Origin: a virus | Taxonomy: Duplodnaviria; Heunggongvirae; Uroviricota; Caudoviricetes | Length of the DNA stretch: 39,775 nucleotides | Direction: 5' to 3' (one strand) | Virus record (IMG/VR): IMGVR_UViG_2872158770_000006 | Shown: positions 982-39,775 of the stretch, piece after piece | Numbering within the stretch: the stretch's first letter is position 1 | Layout: each line of letters begins with the position of its first letter | Program-made: the position numbers and the translations under genes | The notes under the pieces: model-generated | What the model saw: only the letters and a program-made list of their open reading frames with translations | Databases searched by the model: none | Told to the model about the DNA's origin: nothing

Positions 982-1040
982 GGTATCCGTTCTGCTGAAG
1001 TGTCATGGCGTTGATTTTACGGTGACTCTTCGACAGTGAA

Positions 1041-1064
1041 AAGAAAAAAGGCCGCAGAGCGGCC
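1041..1064 (-). terminator. Rho-independent terminator-like hairpin between the prophage int-side operon and btuC
   Basis: Minus-strand reading gives GGCCGCTCTGCGGCC (stem-loop, 1050-1064) followed by TTTTTTCTT (1041-1049). Confidence 0.5.
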
Positions 1065-1173: not shown

Positions 1174-1728
1174 TCAGCCAACAAATTTAGCAACAAATAC
1201 AGCAACCGCCGCTGTGAAAATGGTTGTGCACACTGGCACAATAATGCCACTCCAACGCCACTTCGTATTATCATCAACCTTGTCAAACCGCCGATTCATC
1301 TCATCCATAATCTTGTCAAAGCGTTTATCCATCGCTTCGGTAAGCTCACCCTTCAGGCTGTTAATGTCTGATTTGAGCTGCTCTTTCAGGTTAGCTGTAT
1401 CAGATTTAAGCTCACCTTTCAGATTCGCAATATCGCATTCAAGATCACCTTTCAGATGTGCTATGTCTGCTTTGAGTTCACCTTTCACCTCACCAACATC
1501 GGCTTTAGTTGAGAGGTTTGTAGTGCGTTCAGCAAGCGTCGCAAGGTCGTTTCTTGTTAGCGATAAATCACCTTCGAGCCGCTCAATTCGCCTTTCAAGT
1601 TTATCTGACATTCCGCCTCCACTACTGCCGCCATCGCCACCATGATAAAGCACATCACGCTCAGAATGCGACACACTACCTGCTGAATTACCGAAAAGAT
1701 TTCTTGCTACATTACCCATTATCACCAT
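1174..1728 (-). CDS. Tail-anchored coiled-coil membrane protein with five 11-residue repeats; function unknown, cargo gene
   Basis: ORF with Gly/Ser-rich N-terminus, about 100 aa of heptad/hendecad repeats (LKGDLECDIAN / LKGELKSDTAN / LKEQLKSDINS / LKGELTEAMDK) and a C-terminal TM helix (WSGIIVPVCTTIFTAAVAVFVAKFVG). Alternative starts at 1719 (ATG overlapping the upstream stop, ATGGGTAA) and 1611 (ATG with GGAGG 7 nt upstream). AT-rich codon usage. Confidence 0.55.
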   Translation of the reverse strand: MVIMGNVARNLFGNSAGSVSHSERDVLYHGGDGGSSGGGMSDKLERRIERLEGDLSLTRNDLATLAERTTNLSTKADVGEVKGELKADIAHLKGDLECDIANLKGELKSDTANLKEQLKSDINSLKGELTEAMDKRFDKIMDEMNRRFDKVDDNTKWRWSGIIVPVCTTIFTAAVAVFVAKFVG

Positions 1729-2212
1729 CCTGCGCTTTGTCTTTCTCCAACCACTTCAGCACCGCAGACGTACGATAAAGGCTCAGGTAACCACAATTCA
1801 GGCAATGCAGCGTGTAATAAGTTTTGCGCATATCAGGTATGCTCTTAACATCACCCAAAAAAGCATAAGATACATAATGCTTTATGTTCTCTTTAATTAA
1901 CTCACTCTGTTCCTCCAGGGGTAGATTGTTAAAATTTTCTGGTTTCTTATTTTTATCCCAGCAAAGATCCATACTTTCTGGAACAGATAATCGCGACGAT
2001 CCACATGAAGGGCAGACACTGGAGACCCCCTTCTCAGACAAGAAACGGAAGAAGATTTCTGGCGTAATCTCCATCAGCCGCTCTTTATGTTTTTTGACAC
2101 GACTCATCGACTTCTTATTGATTTCATCAGCTTCTTCTTTGCATTTATCTTCTATATATTTCGATAGTAAATAGTCATATAACTCTTTTTTTGTAGGTTT
2201 TTTTATTTCCAT
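1712..2212 (-). CDS. Zinc-ribbon protein (two CxxC pairs); function unknown, cargo gene, translationally coupled to int
   Basis: 166-aa ORF with CPSCG and CLNCG motifs; ATG at 2212 lies 2 nt after the int stop (2215-2217) with GGGAGG 8 nt upstream inside the int 3' end; very AT-rich. Confidence 0.6.
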   Translation of the reverse strand: MEIKKPTKKELYDYLLSKYIEDKCKEEADEINKKSMSRVKKHKERLMEITPEIFFRFLSEKGVSSVCPSCGSSRLSVPESMDLCWDKNKKPENFNNLPLEEQSELIKENIKHYVSYAFLGDVKSIPDMRKTYYTLHCLNCGYLSLYRTSAVLKWLEKDKAQDGDNG

Positions 2213-2214
2213 AG

Positions 2215-3192
2215 TTACATTCCTCCCAAGGGATTAAACCTCACCGCATCCTGCAAGTAATCCGGCGCAAGATGGGCATAAATCATCGTTGTCTGAATCT
2301 TTGCGTGCCCCAGAATTTTCTGGAGCGTCAGAATATTGCCGCCGTTCATCATGAAATGACTGGCGAAGGTGTGGCGCAGCGCATGAACAGCCTGGCCGTC
2401 AGGAACATCAGGTGCGACCGTTTTGATGACATCGCGAACCAATGAATAATCCAGCGTCGGAAACACCAGTTTCCCGCCCCGTTTTTTGATCTTTTCAAAC
2501 AGGCTTTCAGAAATAGGAACGGTACGGTTTTTGCTGTTCTTCGTTTTTGAAAAAGTGATTCGACAATGAAGAACACGGCGCTGCTCCAGTGCCGCTACCT
2601 CGCCCCATCGCGCCCCGGTCGACAGAAGGATTTCGACGGCCAGCCGTTCATCGGGATTTTCAGCCAGTGCATCCAGCAACTGAACACATTCAGACTTACT
2701 CAGATATCCCATTTCACGCTCGTTAACCTTCATTCCTTTAAGGCCTTGAACGGGGTTATCGTTAAGAAAATGGCCGGATGAGATGAGTGCGGTAAACATC
2801 GCGCTTAACGCCCCAATCTCTCGATTTATGGTGCTGGGCTGTATCCCCTGCTCTATCCTGGACACACGTAGCTCGGTGAGCATCGTTGTATTAAGTTTAT
2901 GCACGCACGGGTCATCCATTGCCTCACTCAAGCGCAGCAATTTAAGGCGCGTGTTATGCCCTGACTTCATTAGCTGGCCGTGGTATTTCCACCACAAGTC
3001 AATAAGCACTGACAGCGGACGGCGATCAATGGAGTTTCCTTTCCACTCATTGTTATGCTGTTGCGCCAGCACCCACCGCTCATATAAAACTGCATCCGAT
3101 TTCGTTTTAAATTTTTTGCGAATGCGTTTGCCTTTACGCCCCTCAGGACGCATGTCAAGAAGATACCCTCCCGGAATTGATTTTATGCTCAT
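2215..3192 (-). CDS. int: P2-type tyrosine integrase
   Basis: C-terminal catalytic region HALRHTFASHFMMNGGNILTLQKILGHAKIQTTMIYAHL (R-H-R-Y tyrosine recombinase signature); N-terminus MSIKSIPGGYLLDMRPEGRKGKRIRKKF aligns with the P2 Int N-terminus; the longer ORF to 3342 is probably a read-through artefact. Confidence 0.9.
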   Translation of the reverse strand: MSIKSIPGGYLLDMRPEGRKGKRIRKKFKTKSDAVLYERWVLAQQHNNEWKGNSIDRRPLSVLIDLWWKYHGQLMKSGHNTRLKLLRLSEAMDDPCVHKLNTTMLTELRVSRIEQGIQPSTINREIGALSAMFTALISSGHFLNDNPVQGLKGMKVNEREMGYLSKSECVQLLDALAENPDERLAVEILLSTGARWGEVAALEQRRVLHCRITFSKTKNSKNRTVPISESLFEKIKKRGGKLVFPTLDYSLVRDVIKTVAPDVPDGQAVHALRHTFASHFMMNGGNILTLQKILGHAKIQTTMIYAHLAPDYLQDAVRFNPLGGM

Positions 3193-3241
3193 TCGTGAAG
3201 CCCCAGCGTTACAAGACCACCATGCCCCCAGCGTTCCATGA

Positions 3242-3553
3242 TTAGCCGGGCTGTGTGCCAGTCTTGCGGGATTTTTGAGAAGACGATGTGTTTTCTGGCC
3301 CATCAGGGGAGAGAGAAGGACTGATCTGCCCAGCAGCCTCATTTGTTTCGTTACTCATCAACCACGTAGTGTATTTTTTAAATTCCGGGTGCATTGTGAT
3401 TTTCAGTAAAACCTCCGTTCCCACACCTCGAATACCAGTCTCGTATTGCTTAACCGTACCAACCGCAATACCTATTGAATCCGCGAACTTTGCCTGACTA
3501 AGCCCCTCAGATTCTCGAATTGCTTTTAGCTTCTTTGATATCTCTATTGACAT
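3242..3553 (-). CDS. C: P2 C-type immunity repressor (HTH)
   Basis: 103 aa from ATG at 3553; HTH segment LSQAKFADSIGIAVGTVKQYETG and C-terminal ...KYTTWLMSNE...GQISP...SQKSRKTG resemble P2 C; divergent from the cox-like gene. Confidence 0.8.
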   Translation of the reverse strand: MSIEISKKLKAIRESEGLSQAKFADSIGIAVGTVKQYETGIRGVGTEVLLKITMHPEFKKYTTWLMSNETNEAAGQISPSLSPDGPENTSSSQKSRKTGTQPG

Positions 3554-4611: not shown

Positions 4612-5430
4612 ATGTGTCAGGTATTTGGTGTATCCAGGAGCGGTTATTACAACTGGGTACAGCATGAACCCTCAGACAGAAAACAAAGTGATGAGCGGCT
4701 AAAACTGGAGATTAAGGTGGCACATATCCGCACTCGCGAAACATATGGAACCCGGCGGCTCCAGACGGAGCTGGCAGAGAATGGCATCATCGTTGGTCGT
4801 GACCGACTGGCACGTCTTCGTAAGGAGCTAAGGCTACGCTGTAAGCAGAAACGCAAGTTCAGAGCGACTACGAACTCGAACCACAATCTGCCAGTTGCGC
4901 CAAATCTGCTGAACCAGACGTTCGCTCCTACAGCACCAAATCAGGTCTGGGTGGCGGACCTGACGTATGTTGCCACACAGGAGGGATGGTTGTACCTCGC
5001 TGGCATCAAAGATGTTTATACGTGCGAAATTGTCGGCTACGCCATGGGAGAGCGCATGACAAAAGAGCTGACAGGTAAAGCCCTGTTTATGGCGCTCAGG
5101 AGCCAGCGCCCACCTGCCGGGCTAATCCACCACTCTGATCGAGGTTCACAGTACTGCGCATACGATTACCGGGTCATACAGGAGCAGTCTGGTCTGAAAA
5201 CATCAATGTCGCGTAAAGGTAACTGTTACGACAACGCTCCGATGGAAAGCTTCTGGGGAACGCTGAAAAATGAGAGCCTGAGCCACTATCGTTTTAATAA
5301 CCGGGATGAAGCCATCTCAGTAATACGGGAATACATTGAGATTTTCTACAATCGTCAGCGTCGTCACTCTCGTCTGGGGAATATCTCCCCGGCAGCCTTC
5401 AGGGAAAAATATCATCAGATGGCTGCTTAA
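4612..5430 (+). CDS. IS3-family transposase OrfB (DDE catalytic domain), -1 frame relative to OrfA
   Basis: 272-aa with DDE/rve integrase core motifs (…HSDRGSQY…, …YDNAPMESFWGTLK…); frame extends upstream of the first Met to the frameshift site. Confidence 0.85.
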   Translation: MCQVFGVSRSGYYNWVQHEPSDRKQSDERLKLEIKVAHIRTRETYGTRRLQTELAENGIIVGRDRLARLRKELRLRCKQKRKFRATTNSNHNLPVAPNLLNQTFAPTAPNQVWVADLTYVATQEGWLYLAGIKDVYTCEIVGYAMGERMTKELTGKALFMALRSQRPPAGLIHHSDRGSQYCAYDYRVIQEQSGLKTSMSRKGNCYDNAPMESFWGTLKNESLSHYRFNNRDEAISVIREYIEIFYNRQRRHSRLGNISPAAFREKYHQMAA

Positions 5431-35876: not shown

Positions 35877-36116
35877 GCAACTTAAATGTATTAACTCAGA
35901 ACGGATCAACACACTCACAACATAGAGTCAATATAGCTGCTCGCTTTGTTCCAGCAAGGATGCCTATTTCTAAGGAAAAACAGAGCAGAAACATATGGTG
36001 TTTTCCTACCTGACATCAGGGGTGGTAGACTGGCCCCCTGAATCTCCAGACAACCAGTATCACTTAAATAAGTGATAGTCTTAATACTAGTTTTTAGACT
36101 AGTCATTGGAGTACAG

Positions 36117-36482
36117 ATGATTGATGTCTTAGGGCCGGAGAAACGCAGACGGCGTACCACACAGGAAAAGATCGCAATTGTTCAGCAGAGCTTTGAACCG
36201 GGGATGACGGTCTCCCTCGTTGCCCGGCAACATGGTGTAGCAGCCAGCCAGTTATTTCTCTGGCGTAAGCAATACCAGGAAGGAAGTCTTACTGCTGTGG
36301 CCGCCGGAGAACAGGTTGTTCCTGCCTCTGAACTTGCTGCCGCCATGAAGCAGATTAAAGAACTCCAGCGCCTGCTCGGCAAGAAAACGATGGAAAATGA
36401 ACTCCTCAAAGAAGCCGTTGAATATGGACGGGCAAAAAAGTGGATAGCGCACGCGCCCTTATTGCCCGGGGATGGGGAGTAA
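36117..36482 (+). CDS. insC: IS2 OrfA (InsC)
   Basis: [41 protein letters not shown]... matches the remembered IS2 InsC. Confidence 0.9.
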
Positions 36483-37345
36483 GCTTAGTCAGCCGTTGTC
36501 TCCGGGTGTCGCGTGCGCAGTTGCACGTCATTCTCAGACGAACCGATGACTGGATGGATGGCCGCCGCAGTCGTCACACTGATGATACGGATGTGCTTCT
36601 CCGTATACACCATGTTATCGGAGAGCTGCCCACGTATGGTTATCGTCGGGTATGGGCGTTGCTTCGCAGACAGGCAGAACTTGATGGTATGCCTGCGATC
36701 AATGCCAAACGTGTTTACCGGATCATGCGCCAGAATGCGCTGTTGCTTGAGCGAAAACCTGCTGTACCGCCATCGAAACGGGCACATACAGGCAGAGTGG
36801 CCGTGAAAGAAAGCAATCAGCGATGGTGCTCTGACGGGTTCGAGTTCTGCTGTGATAACGGAGAGAGACTGCGTGTCACGTTCGCGCTGGACTGCTGTGA
36901 TCGTGAGGCACTGCACTGGGCGGTGACTACCGGCGGCTTCAACAGTGAAACAGTACAGGACGTCATGCTGGGAGCGGTGGAACGCCGCTTCGGCAACGAT
37001 CTTCCGTCGTCTCCAGTGGAGTGGCTGACGGATAATGGTTCATGCTACCGGGCTAATGAAACACGCCAGTTCGCCCGGATGTTGGGACTTGAACCGAAGA
37101 ACACGGCGGTGCGGAGTCCGGAGAGTAACGGAATAGCAGAGAGCTTCGTGAAAACGATAAAGCGTGACTACATCAGTATCATGCCCAAACCAGACGGGTT
37201 AACGGCAGCAAAGAACCTTGCAGAGGCGTTCGAGCATTATAACGAATGGCATCCGCATAGTGCGCTGGGTTATCGCTCGCCACGGGAATATCTGCGGCAG
37301 CGGGCTTGTAATGGGTTAAGTGATAACAGATGTCTGGAAATATAG
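36440..37345 (+). CDS. insD: IS2 transposase OrfB (InsD), DDE domain
   Basis: 301-aa ORF matching the remembered IS2 InsD; overlaps insC in the -1 frame. Confidence 0.9.
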
Positions 37346-37437
37346 GGGCAAATCCAGGTGGTAAGAATCATGCTTTGATAACCAATTGATAACTATTATT
37401 ATATTAATCTAACACCATTGACATAGTTGAGGTTTGA

Positions 37438-38940
37438 ATGAACAAAAAGCTGTATTTATTCCCAGACTCAAACATTTTTCTACAATGCAAGGACTTGACG
37501 CAGGTAAATTTTTCCGAGATTACTGCTTGTGATGAAGTATGTATCATTATTACAAGGCCCATTCAGCAAGAGATTGACCGCCAGAAAGGGCAAGGTAATT
37601 CCCGCCTATCCAAAAAAGCAAGGAAGGCTGCTAGCCTATTTAATCAAGTAGTTGATTCAACTGACATGACTCTTGTTATTCGTGAACGCTCGCCGCGAGT
37701 TTTTCTTACCATGGATCTAAGCCTGAAACCATGTGAACAGTTATCTGAACAATTGGATTATCAGGAGGCCGACGATCGTTTTGTTGGTATTGCGGCAGGG
37801 TATTGCGCTGACGATCCAGATTCGGAGGTGGCAATCATTACCAATGATAGCGGTCCACGTTTTTCAGCAATAAAACATAATATAATCTGCTATAAAGTGC
37901 CTTCTTCATGGTTGCTTCCTGCTGAGCCAGATGAAAAGGATAAACAAATTAAATTGCTGGAAGCTAAGCTGAAGCAATTCACTCAGTCTATGCCCGATTT
38001 CAGCATTAAAGTAGCCGATGACGAGCAATTAAATATTGTACTTCCTTATTATACAGCTTTATCTGAATATGAAGTTGATAATTTGCTTTGTCAACTAACG
38101 GATGCATTCCCATTGGTTACAAACTTTGACAATGAACAAACTACCCCACAATCACTAGAAAAAATCATCAAGTCATTTAGTCAACAGGAGTATTTCCCTG
38201 TATCAGCAGATGATATTTCTCTTTATAAAGAAAAACATTATCCACTTTGGAAAAAGCAGTGTGAAGAAATACTGAAAAACTGTCATACTCATATTAATCC
38301 GAAGGCAATAAATTACCCGCTGTCGTTTTTATTACAAAACACAGGTTATACTATCGCTGAACGTGCTGTGGTAACATTTACAGCAAAAGGAGATTTTCGT
38401 CTGTGTGGATTTAATTGGGAGATAATGGAAGAGCTGACTGAAAGCAAAAGGATTGACCTACCTTCAGCCCCTACCGCCCCCAAAGGAAAATGGCGTAGTG
38501 TATGTGGCGTAACAGAAAGAATGCCTTACGCTGGGGGAGCTTTGGAAACACCGCTATCCAGTATAATTTCAAAAGAAATTGGTCCTTTGTTATCTCTTAC
38601 TCCAACAGAAAGGGATAAAAACGATTTTTATTATAAAGAAAAGAGAAATGAGCCAGTTCAAGTTGTATCGCTGGAATGCGAAGAGTGGCGTCATCAAGTC
38701 AAAGAAGAAATATTCCCGTTGTTCGTATATACAGCCAACAAACCAAAGAAAGTGAATGGTGCAATTGAGGTGAGAGTTGATGCAAATAACCTTACCAATC
38801 CGGTCATTAAAACATTTAAATTAAAAATAACTATAGAAGAACATAGTGCATTTTCAACCATAACAGAAATGGTGCAGACATACATTCAAGAGCAGAAGAA
38901 AAGACAGAAAAGTTCTATTAGCGCACAAATCAAAACATGA
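37438..38940 (+). CDS. AT-rich 500-aa cargo protein with predicted N-terminal PIN-like nuclease domain and uncharacterised C-terminal region
   Basis: ATG with GAGG RBS; N-terminus LYLFPDSNIFL…(V)CIIITRPIQQEIDRQ…DDRFVGIAAGY…AIITNDSG gives the spacing of four acidic residues (D10, E45, D112/113, D137) typical of PIN-fold nucleases; markedly lower GC than flanking tail genes by eye. Confidence 0.6.
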   Translation: MNKKLYLFPDSNIFLQCKDLTQVNFSEITACDEVCIIITRPIQQEIDRQKGQGNSRLSKKARKAASLFNQVVDSTDMTLVIRERSPRVFLTMDLSLKPCEQLSEQLDYQEADDRFVGIAAGYCADDPDSEVAIITNDSGPRFSAIKHNIICYKVPSSWLLPAEPDEKDKQIKLLEAKLKQFTQSMPDFSIKVADDEQLNIVLPYYTALSEYEVDNLLCQLTDAFPLVTNFDNEQTTPQSLEKIIKSFSQQEYFPVSADDISLYKEKHYPLWKKQCEEILKNCHTHINPKAINYPLSFLLQNTGYTIAERAVVTFTAKGDFRLCGFNWEIMEELTESKRIDLPSAPTAPKGKWRSVCGVTERMPYAGGALETPLSSIISKEIGPLLSLTPTERDKNDFYYKEKRNEPVQVVSLECEEWRHQVKEEIFPLFVYTANKPKKVNGAIEVRVDANNLTNPVIKTFKLKITIEEHSAFSTITEMVQTYIQEQKKRQKSSISAQIKT

Positions 38941-39183
38941 GGGTGTACTCAAATAATACAATGCTATAGTAAATCTATAAGTGCATAACTATTTCCTGAT
39001 CTTTTCCCAAAATAGATGACAGGATAAAAAACATTCCAATCTTTTACAGGCTTTGGATAAATCGTATCAAAGCCTATTTCTTCAAGAGTTAAATCACCGC
39101 TTTTCGCTCGAAACGGACTGGCTGTTGGAGTATGAGCCAGAACAACTTAGAATAGCCCCTGCACTACGTTAAGGGAGGTCGCT

Positions 39184-39444
39184 ATGTTCCGTTGTCCGCT
39201 TTGTGGCGCATCTGCCCGTATCCGCACCAGTCGTCCGGAAAATGATTCAAACACCGTGCGGCAAAAGTATTACCAGTGTAACAATCTGGAATGCGGCGTA
39301 TGCTTCTCAACACTGGAAGCTTTCCATAAATTCACATCAAAACACGCCTCCGGCGTTCACTCTTCAGAAGATATCCCGTGGCATGATCTGCCAGCTTCAC
39401 ACAGGGGAAACAATCAGATGAGCTTGCCTTTACCTCAGAATTAA
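39184..39444 (+). CDS. ogr: Ogr/Delta-family zinc-finger late transcription activator
   Basis: MFRCPLCGASARIRTSR...YYQCNNLECGVCFSTLEAF parallels P2 Ogr (MFHCPLC...RTSR...YHQCQNVNCSATFIT.E); GGGAGG RBS. Confidence 0.8.
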   Translation: MFRCPLCGASARIRTSRPENDSNTVRQKYYQCNNLECGVCFSTLEAFHKFTSKHASGVHSSEDIPWHDLPASHRGNNQMSLPLPQN

Positions 39445-39504
39445 CAGGCAGAATTGCCGGAGTAACAAAAAAGCGATAGATTACGCGCGGGTGCCTTTCG
39501 GCTG

Positions 39505-39717
39505 ATGGTCGGAGGGAATACCCGAAGGCCAGATGTGGAAAGGCCCCGGAAAACATCTCTGTTTAACCGAGGCCCTAACCGCATTACCTTGACAAGTGAA
39601 AGGTTAGCGCCTCTCCGGAAAAGGAGCAAGTGCTATGTCGCAAAAATCGCTTACGACCATCACGTTCTGCGTGACGGCAATCCTCATCATCTGGATGTTG
39701 CACGGTTCGCTGTGTGA
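39505..39717 (+). CDS. Mok-like overlapping leader ORF of the hok-like locus (putative)
   Basis: 70-aa ORF starting upstream of the hok-like gene and terminating inside it in another frame, the arrangement seen for mok/hok. Confidence 0.35.
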   Translation: MVGGNTRRPDVERPRKTSLFNRGPNRITLTSERLAPLRKRSKCYVAKIAYDHHVLRDGNPHHLDVARFAV

Positions 39718-39775
39718 AATACGGATGAGCTTCTGGGGAGCGGAGTTTGCGGCGTTCTTACAGTGTAAGCAGTAA
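39635..39775 (+). CDS. Hok/Gef-family type I toxin (46 aa, single TM)
   Basis: MSQKSLTTITFCVTAILIIWMLHGSLCEIRMSFWGAEFAAFLQCKQ has the Hok signature (TM helix, then SLCEI/L..., then E.AAF.A.); AAGGAG RBS; stop is the last codon in the window. Confidence 0.6.
   Translation: MSQKSLTTITFCVTAILIIWMLHGSLCEIRMSFWGAEFAAFLQCKQ

What the first reader, a model, noticed from the sequence alone, without database searches (positions are those of the whole stretch)
39505..39775. hok/mok-like type I toxin locus immediately downstream of ogr
A 46-aa ORF with a single TM helix and the Hok family signature (SLCEI…E.AAF…) is preceded by an overlapping upstream ORF in mok-like arrangement and by a long structured leader. 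At the distal end of a prophage this may act as an addiction/stabilisation module or an abortive-infection element. An antisense Sok-like RNA would be expected on the minus strand around 39500-39640.
Basis: partly seen in the sequence, partly recalled or inferred. Interest (0 to 1): 0.5.

Follow-up and report, generated by a model that had tools for sequence, protein, structure and literature searches.

The report
Known Hok toxin locus in prophage
The flagged stretch is a real but already catalogued Hok-family membrane-toxin gene with its antisense-RNA control region, carried at the right end of a P88/P2-like prophage of E. coli; it is ordinary, except that the supposed "mok" leader reading frame is not conserved in its relatives.

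Summary
The 46-aa ORF (39635-39775) is a genuine Hok/Gef toxin: Pfam PF01848 above threshold, and a full-length match to PHROG 251. RefSeq annotates it "Hok/Gef family protein" in identical E. coli chromosomes. A one-residue variant (72_1621) was cloned for a published overexpression toxicity assay and is not among the three non-toxic ids.

The leader (from 39489) matches Rfam's hok-leader model RF01794 at E 1e-9, below gathering. It carries tac, ucb and a GAGG box. An invariant antisense promoter (-10 at 39606-39601) would drive a Sok-like hairpin RNA (~39597-39530).

The window cuts the locus at the hok stop. The 3' hairpin, the fbi element that pairs with the 5' end, and the terminator lie in the next ~125 nt.

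The att core is 265 nt past the stop. The reconstructed empty btuC-ihfA site is contiguous in 5120 of 5426 E. coli genomes, so hok lies inside the prophage.

The 70-aa "mok-like" ORF exists in this allele. However, its ATG is not at the R1 mok position and has no SD. 16 of 37 distinct leaders, including phage P88, have no read-through leader ORF.

Verdict: already known; low interest. The biological role in the prophage is untested.

The parts
39454..39482 (+). Predicted hok promoter: -35 TTGCCG (39454-39459), 17-nt spacer, -10 TAGATT (39477-39482); predicted +1 at 39489
   Evidence: Read from the sequence. Both hexamers are shared with the Stx-phage homologue L003 although the spacer differs. 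The site scores 8 of 12, so the consensus scan with a 9-of-12 threshold did not report it. The +1 is placed by homology with the first position of the Rfam model. No transcript data.
39489..39503 (+). 5' end of hok mRNA = tac element (GGGUGCCUUUCGGCU)
   Evidence: It pairs with fbi (mRNA nt 337-353, beyond the window) in the MFE of the full-length RNA. It pairs with ucb when the leader is folded alone. It is nearly invariant in 26 alleles, and helix 1 is 94.5% paired.
39534..39549 (+). ucb-like box (UGUGGAAAGGCCCCGG): pairs with tac in the leader-only fold and with the GAGG box in the full-length fold
   Evidence: Invariant or nearly invariant in A2.
39570..39573 (+). Conserved GAGG at the position of the R1 mok Shine-Dalgarno; no canonical start codon 5-10 nt downstream
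   Evidence: Alignment A2, start-codon survey, R1-type controls.
39530..39597 (-). Predicted Sok-like antisense RNA (~65 nt): single-stranded 5' tail, long stem-loop, UUUCC tail; ends approximate
   Evidence: Fold z = -3.2. It has the same architecture as the R1-type Sok region folded in parallel. The position follows from the promoter below. No transcript data.
39601..39629 (-). Predicted Sok promoter: -35 TTGCTC (39629-39624), 17-nt spacer, -10 TAACCT (39606-39601); TSS about 39593-39597
   Evidence: AGGTTA is invariant in 26 alleles while the flanks vary. Geometry matches R1 (TTGCGC-17-TATCCT). The sokW primers in PMC8621323 read TTGCCT-17-TAACC, and the promoter-less mutant changes TAACC. 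Not reported by the consensus scan.
39622..39626 (+). hok Shine-Dalgarno AGGAG, 8 nt before the ATG; paired with 39607-39616 in the full-length fold
   Evidence: Helix 7 is 94.1% paired.
39635..39775 (+). hok toxin gene, 46 aa
   Evidence: Pfam, PHROG and NCBIfam matches. 70 homologues, those that carry a source name named Hok/Gef, one HokA. pN/pS 0.33 over 23 alleles. RefSeq WP_000078923.1. The one-residue variant 72_1621 was tested for toxicity.
39505..39717 (+). 70-aa 'mok-like' ORF: present in this allele, probably not a gene as drawn (a shorter version from TTG 39589 cannot be excluded)
   Evidence: No hit in Pfam, NCBIfam or PHROGs. Not conserved in relatives.

Best explanation
This is a hok/sok-type type I toxin-antitoxin cassette carried as a self-contained insert, with its own promoter and terminator, between ogr and the attachment site of a P88-like (Xuanwuvirus, Peduoviridae) prophage. 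The prophage is integrated at the ihfA terminator.

Proposed mechanism, by homology with R1 hok/sok:
1. A weak promoter (39454-39482) makes a stable mRNA of about 411 nt starting at 39489.
2. In the full-length form the 5' end (tac) pairs with fbi about 340 nt downstream. The GAGG box is held by ucb and the hok SD by an upstream complement, so nothing is translated.
3. Slow 3' trimming removes fbi, tac switches to ucb, and the leader opens.
4. A short, unstable antisense RNA is made from the invariant TAACCT promoter on the minus strand. It pairs with 39530-39597 and leads to repression and cleavage of the mRNA.
5. When antisense synthesis stops, the 46-aa peptide is made, inserts into the inner membrane and collapses it. 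Antisense synthesis could stop through loss of the prophage, a general transcription shut-off, or prophage induction.

Shown here: the toxin family, the conserved RNA pairings, the conserved antisense promoter, and the position inside the prophage.
Shown by others: overexpression toxicity of a one-residue variant.
Inferred: transcription of both RNAs, 3' processing, the RNase III step, and the trigger.

The biological role is not established. My ranking is killing of cells that lose the prophage, then help with lysis on induction (as for hokW-sokW), then exclusion of other phages.
For: Protein:
- Pfam HOK_GEF 29 bits against a cut-off of 22.
- PHROG 251 'MokW-like host killing' 80.8 bits, full length.
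- Best NCBIfam match is HokA.
- 70 database homologues; those that carry a source name are called Hok/Gef family protein, one HokA.
- Purifying selection, pN/pS 0.33.
- The residues reported as conserved in more than 80% of 1264 Hok peptides have counterparts here (C12, T14, L26, C27, E28, E37); the correspondence is by my own reading, and only C27, E28, E37 and nearly L26 were seen conserved in A1.
- Variant 72_1621 (T8A) is in the tested set. The three non-toxic ids are others.

RNA:
- RF01794 hit over model positions 1-157, E 1.2e-9. An R1-type control hits the same strand at 87 bits.
- The full-length MFE pairs nt 1-15 with nt 337-353, z = -7.4.
- The leader alone forms the tac/ucb stem, z = -4.3.
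- On 26 alleles, 90.5% of cells are paired. 27 pairs carry double changes, against 16.4 in shuffles (0 of 500 reach it) and 8-21 in slid controls.
- The 3' hairpin (helix 17) is 99.6% paired with 4 covarying pairs.

Antisense:
- The -10 is invariant.
- The fold has Sok-like architecture.
- The sokW promoter has the same TAACC -10, and mutating it released toxicity.

Context:
- 25-bp att core at window 1040-1064 and again 265 nt after the hok stop.
- The empty site is contiguous in 5120 of 5426 genomes.
- The locus is present in sequenced P88-like phage records, including P88, PhiR44_2 and Chuche.
- 80 of 95 retrieved copies have ogr about 194 nt upstream.
Against: - No transcript, processing or toxicity data exist for this exact allele.
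- The Rfam score is below gathering.
- Neither promoter reaches the 9-of-12 consensus threshold of the scan.
- The mok leader ORF is mandatory for Hok translation in R1 (PMC9841398). Here it is not conserved, so the step 'Sok blocks mok' cannot be transferred as it stands.
- Chromosomal hokA, hokB and hokC loci were reported not to mediate post-segregational killing (cited).
- T4 exclusion by R1 hok/Sok was not reproduced (PMC13047441).
- tac/fbi shows conservation and one-sided changes only, with no compensatory double changes (helix 1).
Confidence: 0.8

Rival explanations
1. The cassette is a translationally silent relic. The peptide could kill if expressed, but without a mok leader ORF the native mRNA is never translated. 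Its persistence would then reflect hitch-hiking with the prophage.
For: 16 of 37 distinct leaders (27 of 96 loci), including phage P88, have no ATG/GTG/TTG leader ORF that reaches the hok SD. In R1, mok translation up to the hok SD is mandatory. Chromosomal hok loci were judged inactive in post-segregational killing tests.
Against: The hok ORF is under purifying selection, pN/pS 0.33, with many synonymous-only alleles. The antisense -10, tac, ucb and fbi are invariant or nearly so. The 3' hairpin covaries. That pattern is unexpected for a dead locus. hok has its own strong SD, AGGAG, at 8-nt spacing.
Confidence: 0.15
2. Same molecular device, but its selected role is to help the phage. On induction the antisense RNA disappears, Hok is made and weakens the membrane, and this advances lysis and raises burst release. 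This is what was shown for hokW-sokW of Stx2 prophage Sp5.
For: hokW-sokW: Sok disappears after mitomycin C, HokW appears about 1 h before the endolysin, and phage release is halved in the deletion (PMC8621323). Close homologues of this very allele (84% nt identity) sit in Stx2a phages. The locus is a fixed feature of P88-like phage genomes. No plus-strand terminator separates ogr from hok, so ogr transcription could read into hok.
Against: HokW is a different Hok cluster (51 aa, MKQQKAM...). Nothing has been measured for a P2-like phage. The effect in Sp5 was modest, about two-fold.
Confidence: 0.3
3. Same molecular device, but its selected role is abortive infection. An incoming lytic phage shuts off host transcription, the unstable antisense RNA decays, and Hok kills the cell before the invader matures.
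For: This is the classical report for R1 hok/sok and T4 (summarised). Prophages commonly carry defence genes, and hok is four-fold enriched in prophages.
Against: T4 protection by R1 hok/Sok could not be reproduced in two strains and two vectors (PMC13047441). hok is not enriched near defence systems (section heading; discussion). There is no PADLOC model hit.
Confidence: 0.12

Closest known systems
hok/mok/sok of plasmid R1 (the type I TA paradigm)
   Same: Toxin family. Predicted mRNA of about 400 nt, with 5' tac pairing to 3' fbi in the full-length form and to ucb in the leader alone. A GAGG box at the mok SD position. An antisense promoter of the same geometry, overlapping the hok SD region. 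An antisense RNA with a 5' tail plus one long hairpin. A stable hairpin just 3' of the hok stop codon.
   Different: Only 33% peptide identity. The peptide is 46 aa rather than 52 and ends ...LQCKQ rather than ...YESGK. The leader is about 28 nt shorter. There is no conserved mok frame: R1-type controls give a 70-aa mok with its ATG 7 nt after GAGG, and this subfamily does not. The Rfam score is 48 bits against 87. It sits on a prophage, not a plasmid.
Hok cluster 72 of Escalera-Maurer et al. (bioRxiv 10.1101/2025.08.07.668861), representatives 72_1621 and 72_1589
   Same: 72_1621 differs from the window peptide by one residue (T8A). 72_1589 is the Stx-phage/L003 peptide. Both were cloned for arabinose-induced toxicity tests and neither is among the three non-toxic ids.
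   Different: That study tested the coding sequences alone with a constant SD. It explicitly did not analyse mok, Sok or the mRNA ends. It did not describe the ogr-attR position.
hokW-sokW of Stx2 prophage Sp5 (Takada et al. 2021, PMC8621323)
   Same: A prophage-borne hok/sok with an experimentally supported antisense antitoxin. From the primers I read a TTGCCT-17-TAACC promoter, close to TTGCTC-17-TAACCT here.
   Different: HokW is 51 aa and belongs to the HokD-like group. It sits in a lambdoid phage. Its demonstrated role (help with lysis on induction) has not been tested here.
Chromosomal HokA of E. coli
   Same: Best-scoring NCBIfam model (NF007290, E 2e-8). Diverged relatives in L093 and L095 start MPQK like HokA.
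   Different: The score of 34 bits is far below the equivalog cut-off of 89. HokA falls in a different 60% cluster (93) in the preprint.

Membership tests
Hok/Gef toxin family (Pfam PF01848) | Profile match above the curated gathering score | tested here: met
   29 bits against a cut-off of 22, E 8.1e-7, profile positions 7-42 of 42. PHROG 251 at 80.8 bits.
Hok/Gef toxin family (Pfam PF01848) | Peptide of about 50 aa with one N-terminal transmembrane helix, plus the conserved Cys, Thr, Leu-Cys-Glu and Glu positions | tested here: met
   46 aa. Hydropathy 1.8-2.0 over residues 5-27. C27, E28 and E37 are invariant and L26 nearly so in A1. C12, T14, L26, C27, E28 and E37 are my reading of the counterparts of the >80% conserved logo positions.
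Hok/Gef toxin family (Pfam PF01848) | Kills or arrests the cell when expressed | not testable with these tools
   Published test of the T8A variant 72_1621, which is not among the three non-toxic ids of 45 tested. The exact allele has not been tested.
hok/sok type I TA locus (R1 paradigm) | Long-range 5'-3' (tac/fbi) pairing in the full-length mRNA | tested here: met
   MFE pairs nt 1-15 with nt 337-353, z = -7.4. Helix 1 is 94.5% paired in 26 alleles, by conservation and G-U changes only, with no double changes.
hok/sok type I TA locus (R1 paradigm) | Alternative tac/ucb stem, with the SD box sequestered by ucb in the closed form | tested here: met
   Leader-only fold: nt 1-14 pair with nt 46-59. 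In the full-length fold, GAGG 39570-39573 pairs with 39542-39549. These are predictions only.
hok/sok type I TA locus (R1 paradigm) | Cis-antisense Sok RNA with its own promoter inside the leader | tested here: inconclusive
   Conserved TTGCTC-17-TAACCT on the minus strand, with the -10 invariant in 26 alleles. Sok-like hairpin. The hexamers are weak by consensus and there are no transcript data.
hok/sok type I TA locus (R1 paradigm) | mok leader ORF that starts just after its SD, overlaps hok and is needed for hok translation | tested here: not met
   There is no ATG/GTG/TTG 5-10 nt after GAGG. The only candidates are TTG at a 16-nt gap or the unrelated ATG 39505. 16 of 37 distinct leaders have no read-through ORF. 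Controls L097 and L098 recover the 70-aa mok.
hok/sok type I TA locus (R1 paradigm) | 3' processing to a truncated active mRNA, and RNase III cleavage of the duplex | not testable with these tools
   Only the covarying hairpin 3' of the stop codon (helix 17, 99.6% paired, 4 double changes) is consistent with a protected truncated 3' end.
Rfam RF01794 (sok / hok leader) | Covariance-model score at or above the gathering score of 59 bits | tested here: not met
   48.4 bits, E 1.2e-9, full model length. Relatives score 42-50 bits and the R1-type control 87 bits.

The most novel reading that the evidence does not exclude
Hok cluster 72, the P88-like/Stx-phage 46-aa Hok, may be regulated without a mok leader peptide. 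On this reading the antisense RNA would act only through mRNA cleavage, or by flipping the leader so that 39607-39616 re-captures the hok SD. This would be a mok-independent variant of the hok/sok switch, fixed in a phage lineage present in about a fifth of complete E. coli genomes.
Probability: 0.3. Interest if true: 0.35.

Novelty: already known. Interest (0 to 1): 0.12.

Why it matters
It matters little as a discovery. The gene is named in RefSeq and in phage records, it belongs to a PHROG family, and a one-residue variant has been tested for toxicity.

Three practical points are worth keeping:
- Gene-based trimming of prophage calls cuts this locus at the hok stop codon. That removes the 3' elements (hairpin, fbi, terminator) that control the toxin, so RNA-level searches on such windows will underscore it.
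- Rfam's gathering score misses this whole phage-borne subfamily.
- The lack of a conserved mok frame in a clearly constrained hok locus is a cheap, testable exception to the R1 model. The most recent survey deliberately left mok unanalysed.

The role of hok in prophages is still described as open in the literature.

Tried and rejected
- The consensus promoter scan of the locus found no sigma-70 site at its 9-of-12 threshold. The promoters given here rest on homology and conservation, not on that scan.
It was redone with alignment A1.
- The genome scan gave only 7 loci, three of them in assemblies labelled with non-enterobacterial names.
- The best 80 IMG/VR loci were all at least 98% identical in protein, so they added little diversity. 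Diversity came from plasmid and chromosome hits.
- Literature searches for hok together with P88, ogr or P2-like found nothing specific. One search failed on syntax.
- The mok-like product has no hit in Pfam, NCBIfam or PHROGs.
- PADLOC has no model hit for the peptide or for the neighbouring PIN-domain protein. There are only weak coiled-coil hits for a left-end ORF.
- My first R1-type control (L004) was unsuitable because its upstream ATG is in frame with hok. It was replaced by L097 and L098.
- Considered and rejected: that the locus lies outside the prophage as a chromosomal hok, and that the Rfam hit on the plus strand means Sok is on the plus strand. The model covers the hok leader strand and ends at the hok AUG.

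Full report
**The observation.** The window ends with a 46-aa ORF at 39635-39775. It has a single hydrophobic stretch at about residues 5-27 and the motif SLCEIR...AEFAAF. It passes Pfam HOK_GEF at 29 bits against a cut-off of 22. It matches PHROG 251 'MokW-like host killing' over its full length at 80.8 bits, E 1e-22. Its best NCBIfam model is HokA, far below that model's cut-off. The gene upstream, 39184-39444, is an Ogr/Delta zinc-finger protein. The 146 nt before the ATG fold much better than shuffles, z = -4.3. They match Rfam RF01794 from the first to the last model position at 48.4 bits, E 1.2e-9, below the gathering score of 59. A control locus of the R1 type hits the same model on the same strand at 87 bits, ending at the hok AUG. 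The model therefore describes the hok leader strand.

**Where it comes from.**
- The last 676 bases of the window are 100% identical to many E. coli chromosomes, for example O111:H- 11128. There the ORF is annotated 'Hok/Gef family protein' (WP_000078923.1).
- 1553 of 5426 complete E. coli genomes have a match, and 1158 cover at least 80% of the ogr-hok query.
- In the phage collection, the arrangement is found in P88, PhiR44_2, Chuche, 500465-2, P884B11, 520873 and a Citrobacter phage. Most are labelled Xuanwuvirus, and the ORF is annotated 'MokW-like host killing'.
- An 84%-identical copy of the hok part alone sits in many Stx2a phages.
- 80 of 95 copies I retrieved have ogr about 194 nt upstream.

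**Inside or outside the prophage.** The window starts at btuC. A 25-bp repeat, AAAGAAAAAAGGCCGCAGAGCGGCC, lies at window 1040-1064. It lies again 265 nt after the hok stop, at L001 4941-4965, just before ihfA. Joining the two outer flanks across one copy of the repeat gives a sequence that is contiguous in one place over at least 80% of its length in 5120 of 5426 genomes, at 100% identity in the listed hits. It is annotated ihfA | btuC. The prophage therefore ends at that repeat, which is the ihfA terminator, and hok is its last gene.

**The locus is cut by the window.** I read on in L001, where window coordinate = L001 coordinate + 35099. The hok stop is followed by these elements:
- a GC-rich hairpin at L001 4685-4708;
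- the sequence GGCCGGAUAAGGCACCC at 4726-4742, window-equivalent 39825-39841;
- an intrinsic terminator at 4764-4791 followed by a T run.

The 411-nt RNA from 39489 to the terminator folds with z = -7.4. Its nt 1-15 pair with nt 337-353. This is the tac/fbi fold-back that defines the inactive full-length hok mRNA (PMC9841398). In that fold the conserved GAGG (39570-39573) is held by 39542-39549, and the hok SD by 39607-39616. Folded alone, the leader instead pairs its 5' end with 39534-39547, which is the tac/ucb stem of the active form.

**Conservation of the RNA.** I aligned 26 distinct alleles from phages, chromosomes and plasmids, 72-99% identical to the window.
- The full-length structure is 90.5% paired.
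- It has 27 pairs with changes on both sides. Shuffles give 16.4 (0 of 500 reach 27), and slid controls give 8-21.
- The structure was derived from one of the sequences, which inflates the paired percentage. It does not inflate the double changes.
- The hairpin 3' of the stop codon is the best supported helix: 99.6% paired, with 4 covarying pairs. It corresponds in position to the terminal stem-loop whose disruption destabilises truncated R1 hok mRNA.
- tac/fbi is conserved rather than covarying.

**Antisense RNA.** On the minus strand, TTGCTC (39629-39624), 17 nt, then TAACCT (39606-39601) has the same geometry as R1's TTGCGC-17-TATCCT. The -10 complement AGGTTA is invariant in all 26 alleles while its left flank varies. 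In hokW-sokW the probe and mutagenic primers read TTGCCT-17-TAACC. Changing TAACC to GAGCC gave the promoter-less construct that released toxicity. That reading of the primers is my inference. Transcription from about 39594 leftwards gives an RNA with a free 5' tail and one long hairpin followed by UUUCC. This is the shape of the R1-type Sok region folded in parallel. No transcript evidence is available to me.

**The mok question.** The 70-aa ORF 39505-39717 is in the same frame relation to hok as R1 mok. Several points count against it as a gene:
- Its ATG is nt 17 of the mRNA, inside the tac stem, without an SD.
- In R1-type controls the method recovers the 70-aa mok, with its ATG 7 nt after GAGG and 58 nt before hok. 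This agrees with PMC9841398.
- In the window the only in-frame canonical start near that place is TTG 39589, 16 nt after GAGG.
- In P88 itself, in the Stx-phage copy and in many others, the frame is closed by a stop at -46. No ATG/GTG/TTG ORF in any non-hok frame reaches the hok SD. This is true of 16 of 37 distinct leaders and 27 of 96 loci.
- The product has no family match.

The hok ORF, by contrast, is under purifying selection, pN/pS 0.33, with many alleles differing only synonymously. So mok is not a conserved part of this subfamily. The latest survey states that it did not attempt to call mok.

**What is already known.**
- The preprint by Escalera-Maurer et al. catalogues 32,532 hok loci and reports a four-fold enrichment in prophages.
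- Its Table S2 lists 72_1621, which is the window peptide with T8A, and 72_1589, which is the Stx-phage variant, among the constructs tested. 42 of 45 were toxic, and the three non-toxic ids are others.
- hokW-sokW, a different Hok cluster, speeds growth arrest and doubles phage release on induction.
- T4 exclusion by R1 hok/Sok was not reproduced.

**Verdict.** This is a correctly spotted but already annotated member of a well-known system. The most likely mechanism is the R1-type RNA switch with an antisense antitoxin. I put 0.8 on its being an active hok/sok-type cassette. The mok step is unsupported and the biological role is open. Novelty: already known. Interest: 0.12. The only mildly novel reading is mok-independent control in this cluster, with probability about 0.3.

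Noticed in passing
window 35888-39143: Relative to phage P88, the window carries a 3.26-kb insert between gene D and ogr. It holds a 500-aa PIN-domain protein (37438-38940, Pfam PIN_4, no PADLOC hit). It also holds an IS3-family element (36028-37356; orfA 36072-36482, orfB 36440-37345) that is absent from the otherwise near-identical O111 11128 prophage. This looks like a variable cargo site.
   Followed up: partly
window 39775 (end); L012, L014, L020 and many other IMG/VR loci: The window ends exactly at the hok stop codon, as do dozens of IMG/VR prophage contigs (locus length 2641). The hok 3' UTR is cut off: hairpin, fbi and terminator, about 125 nt. So are the last 265 nt of the prophage. 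I take this to be boundary trimming.
   Followed up: yes
window 1040-1064 and L001 4941-4965: The att core is the ihfA transcription terminator, and integration duplicates it. Rfam STnc540 (43 bits, above its gathering score of 38) matches across the ihfA 3' end and the core at L001 4885-5041 on the minus strand.
   Followed up: partly
window 1174-2212 (- strand): Two ORFs lie between attL and the integrase (2215-3342): a 184-aa coiled-coil protein and a 166-aa protein with no Pfam family. PADLOC hits are weak only. They may be left-end cargo.
   Followed up: partly
L095 935-1075 and 1659-1799: In one STEC record, two diverged hok copies (MPQK... type, with SPCEF instead of SLCEI) lie in tandem: one right after ogr and a second about 580 nt downstream.
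   Followed up: no
L004 544-759: An IncFII plasmid allele of R1-type hok has its mok-position ATG 57 nt (not 58) before the hok ATG, which puts it in frame with hok. This predicts a 71-aa extended ORF and no separate mok frame. RefSeq annotates only a 33-aa fragment there.
   Followed up: partly
L005, L007, L009: Near-identical E. coli-type hok loci occur in assemblies labelled Planococcaceae MAG, Vagococcus sp. and Xanthomonas pisi (74-96% protein identity). I suspect contaminating enterobacterial contigs.
   Followed up: no
L093 1092-1797: A diverged copy of this hok subfamily (74% nt identity) lies next to the L31 type B gene, in a record labelled as an EDL933 plasmid of 212 kb. I suspect it is chromosomal sequence.
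   Followed up: no
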